Positions 39,001-42,000 of a stretch of 64,000 bases of DNA are shown in pieces; within the stretch, counting starts at the first letter, position 1; every line of letters starts with the position of its first letter. Position numbers: made by a program. The stretch is from Escherichia coli (GTDB taxonomy: Bacteria > Pseudomonadota > Gammaproteobacteria > Enterobacterales > Enterobacteriaceae). The stretch lies in NCBI RefSeq assembly GCF_003334385.1, contig NZ_QOWN01000002.1; one strand, written 5' to 3'.

Positions 39001-42000
39001 ATGCCAAGACGAATCAACAATACGGGCAAATAAGATGCCATCCATTGGTACAGCTTCAGCTCGCGCTGCCTTAACATTTTTATCCAACCGTTACCGCCCG
39101 TGGTTTTTGCCAATTGCGGGCCATCAAAGCGAAACCCCGGCACTTCAACCTGCGGGTAGCGGTCGGTGATGAGCAGAAAGCCTTGCTGGCTTTTACACAA
39201 CATTTTGCGAAACTTGTACGCCCGCCAGCAGGAAAGCAGATAGATAACCAGTGCAGTAATATTGCCAGGCGGTGTTGAGGGCTTTTCGTGCACATGTGCC
39301 GCTTTACTTCGCAGATAACGCCCAAAAGGTGCGCCAATAACAGGGAGCTGTGAAATCCATTCGCCAATTCGCCCGGACGATTGCCCGAGATAAATGTGTT
39401 CTGTTGGCATTCTTGCTGCCAGTTCATTTACCAGGCTTGCCGTGAGGGTCGATTTACCTGAACCATCACATCCTACAATGGCAATAACACGCACTGGCGT
39501 GGAATTAATTATTGACATATTACGTTGATTCACGAAAAACCCGGCAGTAAATAATGTATTGAATATTACGTGGTCCGTGCTCAGAATATCCGTTCAACCT
39601 TATTGTGACAATGGTTAATTGTGACATTGACCTGAATTACGCTTTCATAAAAACATATTAACCAAATAAATATTTTTAATGGATATTTAAATTAAAGGAT
39701 ATATTCATGCAGTCAATAACACCTCCATTAATTGCCGTTATTGGTAGCGATGGTTCAGGCAAGTCAACGGTGTGTGAACATCTTATTACCGTTGTCGAAA
39801 AATATGGTGCTGCCGAAAGAGTTCATTTAGGAAAACAGGCCGGAAATGTCGGTCGTGCAGTGACAAAATTACCGTTGATGGGAAAATCCTTACATAAAAC
39901 AATTGAACGAAATCAGGTGAAAACAGCAAAAAAATTGCCTGGACCAGTTCCGGCGCTGGTAATTACAGCGTTTGTCGCCCGTCGCTTACTGCGCTTTCGT
40001 CATATGCTTGCCTGTCGTCGTCGCGGGTTAATTGTTCTAACCGACCGTTATCCTCAGGACCAAATTCCTGGCGCTTACGATGGTACGGTGTTCCCACCTA
40101 ACGTTGAAGGTGGTCGTTTTGTCTCATGGCTGGCAAGCCAGGAACGTAAAGCGTTTCACTGGATGGCGAGCCATAAGCCTGATCTGGTCATCAAACTCAA
40201 TGTTGACCTTGAAGTTGCCTGTGCACGTAAACCCGACCATAAACGGGAATCGCTGGCGAGGAAGATTGCCATAACGCCACAGTTAACCTTTGGTGGTGCA
40301 CAACTGGTTGATATCGATGCCAATCAGCCACTGGAACAGGTGTTGGTTGATGCAGAAAAAGCGATTACGGATTTTATGACCGCGCGTGGTTATCACTAGT
40401 CAAAAATGGAAATGCCCGATCGCCAGGACCGGGCATTTTCAGGAAGGTTAAATCAACTGCAATGCTATCCAGTACAGCCCACCAGAAAGAAAAATTGCCG
40501 CCGGTAAAGTAAATACCCACGCCATCAGGATGCTGGTTACCGTTTTACGCTGTAACCCACCGCCGTCCACCACCATCGTCCCTGCAACTGCAGACGAGAG
40601 GACGTGTGTTGTGGAGACGGGCATCCCAATATAACTGGCAAGACCGATAGACACTGCCGCCGTCATTTGTGCCGCCATGCCTTGCGCATACGTCATGCCG
40701 CGCTTACCAATCTTCTCACCGATGGTCATCGCTACACGACGCCAGCCAATCATGGTGCCAATGCCGAGCGCCAGTGCTACCGCCATGATGATCCACACCG
40801 GAGCGTACTCAATGGTGCTTAACATATCGCTGCGAAGTTTTTTCAGCAGGTTCTGGTCTTCTTTACTGACGCCTGGCAGTTTCGCTAGCTTCGCGGAGGT
40901 ATCAGAGATGCACAGCATAATGCGGCGCAGCTGGCTGCGCTGACTCACGCTTAACGGCTCGTAACTTTCCATATTGCCTGGCAGCATCGTTTTAACGCGC
41001 GCAATAGCATCAAAGGTATTTGCCGGATGACAGTGAAACTCTGTTACTTGCGTGCCATCAGTCGATGCTGCAGGCAATGGAGGTTCCATCGCAATCAACT
41101 TCTGCGGCAGTTCAGGATGCTGTTGCAGGTAGTGTTCGAAGTTGGTAACGGCATCGCGGGTACGGGTAATTTCATAGCCGGACGCATTCATATTGACGAC
41201 GAAGCCAGCAGGGGCAATCCCCACCAGTACCAGCATTACCAGGCCGATCCCTTTTTGTCCGTCGTTCGCGCCGTGCGAAAACGCCACGCCCGCAGCGGAA
41301 ACAATCAGCGCAATACGCGTCCAGAATGGCGGTTTACGTTTGCCTTTTTTCTTTTTGCGATCTTCCGGAATGCGGTGAATACGGTCACGCTTTTTCGTCC
41401 CGCTCCAGTAGCGTCGCAGCAGGAATATCAGGCCTCCCGCAATGACCAGGCCGACGATAGGGGAAACAATCAGCGAGGAGAAAATTTTGGTCACTTCACG
41501 CAGGTTTAACGCATCCATCACCGATGAGCCGGTTAACAGCGCGTTGGTTAAACCGATGCCGATAATCGCACCAATCAAGGTGTGCGAACTGGAGGCCGGT
41601 AAACCGAAGAACCACGTTCCCAGGTTCCAGATAATCGCCGCCAGCAGCATGGAAAAGACCATCGCCAGGCCGTGGGTTGACCCCATATTCAGCAACAAAT
41701 CGGTTGGCAACATATGGACAATGGCATAGGCAACGCTAAGTCCGCCCAATAACACGCCAAAAAAGTTAAAAAATGCCGCCATCACCACAGCAAGTTGTGG
41801 TTGCATGGCACGAGTATAAATAACGGCTGCCACCGCATTCGCCGTGTCATGAAAACCATTGATTGCTTCGTAGAACAACACAAATGCCAGAGCAAGCAAT
41901 AACAAAAGCCCTGTGTATATATCAAGGCCAACAAATAAATTTAGCATATATTAGATTACGCCATTTTGAATTTACGAACGGACGCATTATCAGTGACTTT

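What the first reader, a model, noticed from the sequence alone, without database searches (positions are those of the whole stretch)
39602..39626. Direct repeat ATTGTGACA twice in the yghS/yghT divergent promoter region
Two identical 9-mers 16 bp apart, each containing a TGTGA half-site, sit in an AT-rich divergent region. They are candidate binding sites for a CRP-like or other regulator controlling the accessory operon.
Basis: seen in the sequence. Interest (0 to 1): 0.3.

Follow-up and report, generated by a model that had tools for sequence, protein, structure and literature searches.

The report
Short repeat overlapping a conserved promoter −35
The repeated 9-mer is real, but only its first copy sits on a conserved element, most likely the −35 box of an ordinary promoter shared by the divergent yghS and yghT genes; the second copy is not conserved and nothing supports a CRP or FNR site.

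Summary
ATTGTGACA occurs exactly twice in the window, at 39602 and 39618, in the 173-bp, 29.5% G+C spacer between yghS (−) and yghT (+). As a repeat it is only marginally unusual: 4.7% of shuffled spacers show one, and the window holds 15 such pairs against 5.4 expected.

Neither copy fits CRP (7/10 core positions, chance level) or FNR. A published CRP genomic-SELEX target list does not include yghS or yghT.

Comparison across seven species of five genera shows the two copies differ:
- **Copy 1.** The best-conserved 8-mer of the spacer is GTGACAAT (39605-39612), inside copy 1. Its complement TTGTCA lies 17 bp from a second conserved block, TATTCT (39588-39583). The spacer between them varies in sequence but keeps its length. 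This is the signature of a sigma-70 promoter for the yghS operon.
- **Copy 1, other strand.** In Citrobacter and Hafnia the same block reads GTGACA-17-TAGTAT/TATTTT towards yghT.
- **Copy 2.** As a 9-mer it ranks 77 of 165 for conservation. Only its 5' part (TAATTGT) is conserved. With copy 1 it forms a dyad, ACAAT-N5-ATTGT, that could be an operator for an unknown regulator.

No mapped transcription start could be found. The finding is ordinary and of low interest.

The parts
39602..39610 (+). Copy 1 of ATTGTGACA (extends to ATTGTGACAATG, 39602-39613)
   Evidence: Genus-weighted conservation 0.83, rank 18 of 165 9-mers. Its first three bases (ATT) are not conserved.
39618..39626 (+). Copy 2 of ATTGTGACA (extends to ATTGTGACATTG, 39618-39629)
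   Evidence: Conservation 0.67 against a spacer mean of 0.65, rank 77 of 165. It reads TGTGGCA in E. albertii and E. whittamii, TTGTCGTT in the C. freundii group, TTAGCGTT in C. amalonaticus and ATGTCAGC in Pseudocitrobacter.
39605..39612 (.). GTGACAAT, the best-conserved 8-mer of the whole spacer
   Evidence: Identical in E. coli, E. albertii, two Citrobacter, Hafnia, two Pseudocitrobacter and Shimwellia. Rank 1 of 166.
39606..39611 (-). Predicted -35 hexamer TTGTCA of the yghS-operon promoter (P1)
   Evidence: The only promoter-like hit of the consensus scan. It is the top minus-strand candidate at the same alignment columns in Escherichia, Pseudocitrobacter, Shimwellia and Citrobacter, and second in Hafnia. 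Conservation 1.0.
39583..39588 (-). Predicted -10 hexamer TATTCT of P1, 17 bp from the -35
   Evidence: Conservation 0.97, against 0.64 for the 17-bp spacer 39589-39605. Hexamers 0.96 against spacer 0.47 in the Pseudocitrobacter plus Shimwellia comparison; only 3 of 145 placements do as well.
39608..39622 (.). Dyad ACAAT-N5-ATTGT formed by the 3' end of copy 1 and the 5' end of copy 2 (possible operator)
   Evidence: Unique in the window even at 1 mismatch. Exact in all Escherichia loci, the C. freundii group and Hafnia. Arms conserved at 1.0 and 0.88, centre at 0.56.
38820..39533 (-). yghS coding sequence, first gene of the minus-strand operon
39707..40399 (+). yghT coding sequence
39671..39676 (+). 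TATTTT, candidate -10 of yghT. Not part of the repeat; given for context.
   Evidence: TATTT is invariant in all 12 sequences of alignment A1. It is part of TTGAGG/TTGAAG-17-TATTTT in Shimwellia, Pluralibacter and Erwinia, but the -35 is degenerate in Escherichia.

Best explanation
The conserved core of copy 1 (GTGACAAT, 39605-39612) is a -35 element of the divergent yghS/yghT control region. On the minus strand it reads TTGTCA. Together with TATTCT 17 bp downstream it forms a sigma-70 promoter (P1) that would start transcription of the yghS-yghR-yghQ-...-lptG-like operon near 39576. On the plus strand the same block reads GTGACA and serves as the -35 of a yghT-directed promoter in Citrobacter and Hafnia; the matching -10 has decayed in Escherichia. 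Copy 2 is a near-copy peculiar to Escherichia, partly shared with Hafnia and Shimwellia, with no demonstrable role of its own. The exact 9-mer identity of the two copies is largely coincidental.

Shown here: the sequence, the conservation pattern and the constant spacing. Inferred: that RNA polymerase uses these hexamers, and the position of the start site.
For: - The consensus scan finds one promoter-like site in 39400-39800: minus strand TTGTCA (39611-39606), 17 bp, TATTCT (39588-39583).
- The same pair, at the same alignment columns, is the top-scoring minus-strand candidate in 5 of 5 Escherichia, 3 of 3 Pseudocitrobacter, Shimwellia (16-bp spacer, TATCCT), E. albertii and two Citrobacter, and the second-best in Hafnia. 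The spacer sequences differ.
- Conservation profile: GTGACAAT ranks 1 of 166 and TCAGAATAT ranks 3 of 165. The hexamers score 0.97-1.0 and the spacer between them 0.64. In the earlier three-genus comparison only 3 of 145 placements of a 6+17+6 frame score as high.
- GTGACA-17-TAGTAT (Citrobacter) and GTGACA-17-TATTTT (Hafnia) are the top plus-strand candidates there.
- Within E. coli, the 51-mer carrying the repeats is identical in 4407 of 4685 genomes. The flanking 51-mers are identical in 3089 of 4681 and 2674 of 4688.
- Copy 2 as a 9-mer ranks 77 of 165.
Against: - No mapped transcription start was found in any text or supplement I could reach.
- The promoter score alone is not significant: 86 of 1000 shuffles of this AT-rich spacer score as well, and the consensus scan expects 1.7 hits by chance.
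- The TCAGAATAT block could instead be the -35 of a second, older promoter. That promoter reads TTCTGA-17-TTCAAT in E. coli and TTGAAC-16-TACAAT in Klebsiella, Serratia and Sodalis.
- The 5' part of copy 2 (TAATTGT, rank 11 of 167) is better conserved than a neutral sequence should be. The -35 explanation does not account for this.
- A conserved -35-like block cannot be told apart by sequence from a transcription-factor site that overlaps it.
Confidence: 0.55

Rival explanations
1. The functional unit is the 15-bp dyad ACAAT-N5-ATTGT (39608-39622). It is bound by a dimeric helix-turn-helix regulator of unknown identity, centred about 39 bp upstream of the P1 start. From there it would either occlude the -35 (repressor) or act as a class II-type activator of the yghS operon. 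The direct repeat is a by-product of each arm being flanked by G.
For: - The arms are conserved (1.0 and 0.88) while the 5-bp centre varies (0.56): TAACC, TAGGC, TACCC and TAGTC read on the minus strand.
- The exact pattern is kept in Escherichia, the C. freundii group and Hafnia.
- TAATTGT ranks 11 of 167.
- The 10-bp centre-to-centre geometry suits a dimer (inference).
- The DNA stem-loop it could form is weak (z = -1.6), so conservation is not explained by structure.
Against: - The left arm is confounded with the -35 hexamer.
- The right arm is altered in C. amalonaticus (ATTAG), Pseudocitrobacter (AATGT) and Shimwellia (TTTGT).
- There is no second site in the 64-kb window, including the other promoter of the locus at 28567-28975.
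- No regulator gene lies next to the module in any genus examined, and YghO and the 274-aa protein have no recognisable domain.
- No consensus that I tried fits.
- yghS and yghT do not occur in the held supplementary files of one ChIP-exo survey of uncharacterised regulators.
Confidence: 0.2
2. One reading: the two ATTGTGACA copies are two binding sites for CRP, for a CRP/FNR-family protein, or for another regulator that recognises the 9-mer as a direct repeat.
For: - Each copy carries a perfect TGTGA half-site.
- The copies are invariant in nearly all E. coli.
- Shimwellia keeps GTGAC at both positions with the same 16-bp spacing.
Against: - The second CRP half-site is absent: 7/10 for both copies, at chance level.
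- FNR reaches 7/10 elsewhere in the spacer.
- yghS and yghT are absent from the CRP genomic-SELEX target lists.
- Copy 2 is lost in Citrobacter and Pseudocitrobacter while copy 1 is kept.
- The motif TTGTGACA is not enriched in the window: 39 matches at 1 mismatch or fewer, against 52.9 expected.
- The 16-bp period fits neither the 10-11 bp nor the 21 bp tandem spacing of known direct-repeat binders. It also does not fit the 11-bp Pho box, and the best Pho-box match (12/18) lies elsewhere (spacings from general knowledge).
Confidence: 0.05
3. Neither copy has any function. The repeat is a chance feature of an AT-rich, H-NS-bound spacer, and the apparent conservation reflects the short evolutionary distances sampled.
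For: - 4.7% of shuffled spacers contain such a repeat, and there are 15 comparable pairs in the window.
- The promoter score is not significant on its own.
- yghS is listed as associated with H-NS binding in two data sets (PMC5797941), so the region may be largely silent.
Against: - GTGACAAT is invariant across five genera whose spacers are otherwise 54-65% identical to E. coli.
- It lies exactly 17 bp (16 in Shimwellia) from the next invariant block, while the DNA between them diverges.
Confidence: 0.15

Closest known systems
Sigma-70 -35 hexamers of back-to-back divergent promoters
   Same: TTGTCA and GTGACA each match TTGACA at 5 of 6 positions. There is a 17-bp spacer to a TAnnnT hexamer. 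The hexamers are conserved, and the spacer varies in sequence but not in length.
   Different: No transcription start has been mapped. The two -35 readings overlap by 5 bp on opposite strands. The plus-strand partner -10 is degenerate in Escherichia.
CRP binding site (TGTGA-N6-TCACA, 22-bp consensus AAATGTGATCTAGATCACATTT; consensus from memory)
   Same: A perfect TGTGA half-site in each copy.
   Different: There is no second half-site (7/10; 14/22 at best). The arrangement is direct, not inverted. There is no genomic-SELEX evidence.
Phage 434 / Xre-type operators ACAA-N6-TTGT and other short-arm dyads bound by helix-turn-helix dimers (from memory)
   Same: The conserved dyad here, ACAAT-N5-ATTGT, is ACAA-N7-TTGT. 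Its half-site centres lie about one helical turn apart.
   Different: It is one base longer than the 434 operator. No Xre-type gene lies nearby. The similarity is a recollection, not a test.
Pho box (two CTGTCAT repeats at an 11-bp period replacing the -35; from memory)
   Same: The minus strand reads TGTCAC twice as a direct repeat near the -35. The module lies next to pitB, pstS or aphA in several genera.
   Different: The period is 16 bp, not 11. The best 18-bp Pho-box match in the spacer is 12/18, lies elsewhere, and is at chance level.

Membership tests
CRP binding site | Inverted half-sites TGTGA-N6-TCACA (at least about 8/10 in accepted sites) | tested here: not met
   Both copies score 7/10, and 253 of 500 shuffles reach this. 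Neither is among the 18 window matches at 2 mismatches or fewer.
CRP binding site | Binding by CRP-cAMP in vitro or in vivo | not testable with these tools
   Literature only. The CRP genomic-SELEX target lists (PMC3105977) contain yghG but not yghS or yghT.
FNR binding site | TTGAT-N4-ATCAA dyad | tested here: not met
   The best match in the spacer is 7/10 at 39676-39689, outside the repeat; 432 of 500 shuffles do as well.
Sigma-70 promoter | -35-like and -10-like hexamers 16-18 bp apart | tested here: met
   TTGTCA-17-TATTCT on the minus strand. On its own this is not significant.
Sigma-70 promoter | Hexamers conserved among relatives, while the spacer diverges in sequence but keeps its length | tested here: met
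   Hexamers 0.97-1.0 against spacer 0.64. The spacer is 17 bp in Escherichia, Citrobacter, Hafnia and Pseudocitrobacter, and 16 bp in Shimwellia.
Sigma-70 promoter | A mapped transcription start 6-8 nt downstream of the -10 | not testable with these tools
   No start-site data for yghS or yghT was found in the papers and supplements reachable.
Pho box | Two 7-bp direct repeats at an 11-bp period, 10 bp upstream of the -10 | tested here: not met
   The period is 16 bp. The best match to CTGTCATAWAWCTGTCAY is 12/18 at 39642-39659; 229 of 500 shuffles do as well.
Recent tandem duplication | An extra 16-bp unit relative to orthologous spacers | tested here: not met
   The alignments are gapless over 39595-39630 in Escherichia, Citrobacter, Hafnia and Pseudocitrobacter, and up to 39624 in Shimwellia. 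Nowhere does Escherichia carry an extra 16-bp unit.
Operator of a dimeric helix-turn-helix regulator | A dyad with conserved arms and a variable centre | tested here: inconclusive
   ACAAT-N5-ATTGT has arms at 1.0 and 0.88 and a centre at 0.56. The left arm coincides with the -35, and the right arm is altered in three lineages.
Operator of a dimeric helix-turn-helix regulator | An identified cognate regulator | tested here: not met
   No regulator gene lies within about 4 kb of the module in any genus. No tested consensus fits.

The most novel reading that the evidence does not exclude
The conserved dyad ACAAT-N5-ATTGT that bridges the two copies is the operator of a so-far unidentified regulator. 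That regulator would switch on or off the right-hand operon (yghS ... lptF/lptG paralogues) of the cryptic sphingolipid-type locus carried by most E. coli.
Probability: 0.15. Interest if true: 0.4.

Novelty: new member of a known kind. Interest (0 to 1): 0.12.

Why it matters
In itself, little: it is one more probable sigma-70 promoter element in an AT-rich spacer that published data sets associate with H-NS binding.

The only wider interest is the context. The spacer controls part of a sphingolipid-type synthesis and transport locus present in about three quarters of complete E. coli genomes. Its regulation is, as far as I could find, undescribed. A defined promoter and a candidate operator give concrete targets for reporter and pull-down experiments.

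Tried and rejected
- **CRP and FNR.** Consensus scans, rejected.
- **Other consensus sequences** (all recalled from memory): PhoB, RcsB, ArcA, Fur, LexA, IHF, SlyA, LacI-family, FadR-like, NarL, OmpR, CpxR, TyrR, Lrp. None beats shuffles.
- **Motif elsewhere in the window.** TTGTGACA is not enriched. The dyad has no second copy. The other promoter of the locus has no such site.
- **RNA element or hairpin.** Only sub-threshold Rfam noise. The DNA fold has z = -1.6.
- **Tandem duplication.** No length difference from orthologues.
- **Local regulator gene.** None found. YghO and the 274-aa protein have no Pfam or NCBIfam match. One call failed on coordinates taken from K-12, which showed that the window is not K-12.
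- **Transcription-start data.** One paper was not held, one has no supplementary files held as text, and searches of the held files of four others found nothing.
- **ChIP-exo surveys.** One has no mention in its held supplements and the other has no supplements held.
- **Literature.** yghS is associated with H-NS binding and rises 3.1-fold on SlyA overproduction (PMC5797941). There is a weak FlhDC genomic-SELEX peak (intensity 11) in the spacer, with its predicted site inside yghT (PMC9962212). Neither concerns the repeat itself.

Full report
**Observation.** The window reads TTATTGTGACAATGGTTAATTGTGACATTG at 39600-39629. ATTGTGACA occurs at 39602 and 39618 and nowhere else in the window. The copies extend to 12 nt at 11/12 identity, with a 16-bp period. 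They lie in the 173-bp spacer (39534-39706, 29.5% G+C) between yghS (38820-39533, minus) and yghT (39707-40399, plus). The 401 bp around the repeat are identical to K-12, so locally window x corresponds to MG1655 x + 3,094,424.

The window as a whole is not K-12. It is identical over 9.2 kb to E. coli strain 300709, which carries an intact locus that K-12 has partly lost next to an IS5.

**Is it more than chance?** Only marginally. 4.7% of dinucleotide shuffles of the spacer contain an exact 9-mer direct repeat 9-30 bp apart. The window has 15 such pairs against 5.4 +/- 2.3 in shuffles. Orthologous spacers show no 16-bp length difference, so it is not a recent duplication.

**CRP and FNR.** Each copy has TGTGA but no TCACA partner. 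Both score 7/10, which 253 of 500 shuffles reach. The best 22-mer match is 14/22 (52 of 500 shuffles). Neither copy is among the window's 18 matches at 2 mismatches or fewer, and 26 such matches are expected by chance. FNR reaches 7/10 elsewhere in the spacer. The CRP genomic-SELEX target lists of PMC3105977 do not contain yghS or yghT. Fourteen other consensus sequences, all recalled from memory, do no better than shuffles.

**Comparative evidence.** Orthologous yghS/yghT spacers were collected from these sources:
- Escherichia species;
- Citrobacter (two species);
- Hafnia;
- Pseudocitrobacter (three);
- Shimwellia;
- Pluralibacter;
- Erwinia (two);
- Klebsiella, Serratia, Mangrovibacter and Sodalis.

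The spacer aligns well in the first five genera, and Pluralibacter and Erwinia were also aligned.

In a genus-weighted profile the best-conserved 8-mer of the whole spacer is GTGACAAT at 39605-39612 (rank 1 of 166). TCAGAATAT at 39581-39589 ranks 3 of 165. The DNA between them scores 0.64, about the spacer mean of 0.65.

On the minus strand these two blocks are TTGTCA (39611-39606) and TATTCT (39588-39583), separated by 17 bp. This is the only promoter-like site that the consensus scan reports in 39400-39800. With a simple hexamer-plus-spacer score, the same pair at the same alignment columns ranks as follows:
- top minus-strand candidate in all Escherichia, all Pseudocitrobacter, both Citrobacter and Shimwellia (16-bp spacer, TATCCT);
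- second in Hafnia.

In the Pseudocitrobacter plus Shimwellia comparison the twelve hexamer positions score 0.96 against 0.47 for the spacer. Only 3 of 145 placements of the frame do as well.

The score itself is not significant in this AT-rich DNA (86 of 1000 shuffles). The argument therefore rests on the conservation pattern.

The same block read on the plus strand, GTGACA, is the -35 of the best yghT-directed candidate in Citrobacter (GTGACA-17-TAGTAT) and Hafnia (GTGACA-17-TATTTT). In Escherichia the corresponding -10 position reads TGACCT. So the conserved core of copy 1 looks like a -35 element shared by a back-to-back promoter pair.

**Copy 2.** As a 9-mer it ranks 77 of 165. It differs among relatives as follows:

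| Lineage | Sequence at copy 2 |
|---|---|
| E. albertii, E. whittamii | TGTGGCA |
| Hafnia | TGTGGCT |
| C. freundii group | TTGTCGTT |
| C. amalonaticus | TTAGCGTT |
| Pseudocitrobacter | ATGTCAGC |
| Shimwellia | TTGTGAC (kept) |

Only its 5' part is conserved (TAATTGT, 39616-39622, rank 11 of 167). With the end of copy 1 it forms the dyad ACAAT-N5-ATTGT (39608-39622). The arms are conserved at 1.0 and 0.88 and the centre varies at 0.56. The dyad is exact in Escherichia, the C. freundii group and Hafnia and is unique in the window. This leaves room for an operator overlapping the -35. However, the left arm is confounded with the -35, three lineages have altered right arms, and no regulator candidate was found.

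**Within E. coli.** The 51-mer containing the repeats is identical in 94% of genomes that have it. The two flanking 51-mers are identical in 66% and 57%. The one variant allele of that 51-mer I retrieved carries its change at 39592, outside the repeat. These counts are not independent events, and the difference from the yghS-proximal flank is small.

**Other readings rejected.** No Rfam family reaches threshold. The possible DNA hairpin is weak. The 16-bp period fits neither a Pho box nor the usual tandem spacings.

**Literature context.**
- yghS is listed as associated with H-NS binding in two data sets and rises 3.1-fold when SlyA is overproduced (PMC5797941).
- A weak FlhDC genomic-SELEX peak maps to the spacer, with its predicted site inside yghT (PMC9962212).
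- I found no mapped start site and no transcription-factor binding data for the repeat.

**Verdict.**
- The CRP/FNR interpretation is not supported.
- The most economical explanation is that copy 1 contains a conserved -35 element of the divergent promoters and that copy 2 is a lineage-specific near-copy.
- A conserved dyad bridging the copies is a minority alternative.
- This is an ordinary promoter feature of low interest.

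Noticed in passing
window 28976-40399 (locus L018 1977-13400): The yghS/yghT spacer belongs to a sphingolipid-type locus. 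On the plus strand lie a fatty acyl-AMP ligase, an NAD-dependent epimerase/dehydratase-family protein, an acyl carrier protein and serine palmitoyltransferase (598 bits, cut-off 500). Converging on them on the minus strand are yghS, yghR, the MOP flippase yghQ, a 274-aa protein without any domain, a YtfJ-family protein, and LptF and LptG paralogues. At least 80% of the 9.2-kb query covering most of the locus (30500-39700) is present in 4081 of 5426 complete E. coli genomes. K-12 has lost the left part next to an IS5. The locus is mentioned for E. coli B, ETEC B7A, BL21(DE3) and UTI89 in PMC9386255 and bioRxiv 10.64898/2026.04.12.717747. No paper links the ygh names to it.
   Followed up: partly
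window 39676-39702: A second direct repeat with the same 16-bp period lies in the same spacer: TTAATGGATAT / TTAAAGGATAT. The second copy covers the yghT ribosome-binding site. GGATAT or ATATCC occurs three times in the spacer, and GGATATCC lies upstream of the fatty acyl-AMP ligase gene near 28917.
   Followed up: no
window 42148-42173: ATAAATATTG occurs twice, 16 bp apart, in the AT-rich spacer upstream of pitB.
   Followed up: no
L006 4754-6253; L008 7622-8662; L011 6706-7425; L019-L022; L023-L025: yghT is followed by pitB in Escherichia, Citrobacter, Hafnia and Pseudocitrobacter. pstS lies about 3 kb away in Shimwellia and aphA about 2 kb away in Erwinia. In Klebsiella, Serratia and Mangrovibacter yghT is followed directly by the 390-aa aminotransferase (spt-like) gene. 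The recurrent neighbourhood with phosphate genes may be coincidence. Caulobacter makes a glycosphingolipid on phosphate starvation (title of PMC6445935).
   Followed up: partly
window 39557-39586 (minus strand): A second candidate yghS promoter lies downstream of P1. It reads TTCTGA-17-TTCAAT in E. coli and TTCTGA-17-TACAAT in Pseudocitrobacter, and it matches the strong TTGAAC-16-TACAAT of Klebsiella, Serratia and Sodalis. The conserved TCAGAATAT block may therefore serve as the -10 of P1 and the -35 of this promoter.
   Followed up: partly
window 39648-39676; L008, L010, L011, L012: Shimwellia, Pluralibacter and Erwinia share a clear yghT promoter candidate, TTGAGG/TTGAAG-17-TATTTT. In Escherichia the -10 (TATTTT, 39671-39676) is kept but the -35 position reads TAAAAA. 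yghT may therefore be poorly expressed or dependent on an activator.
   Followed up: partly
L008 about 3885-3900: In Shimwellia the position of copy 1 is part of a perfect inverted repeat, GTCACGtgcCGTGAC. Pluralibacter has GCCGCGtgcCGTGGC at the same place.
   Followed up: no
window 39612-39619 and 39657-39664: A perfect 8-bp inverted repeat, TGGTTAAT / ATTAACCA, has 37 bp between its arms, and its left arm lies between the two copies. The right arm overlaps TTAACCAAATAA, which fits the loose SlyA pattern TTA-N6-TAA quoted in PMC5797941.
   Followed up: no
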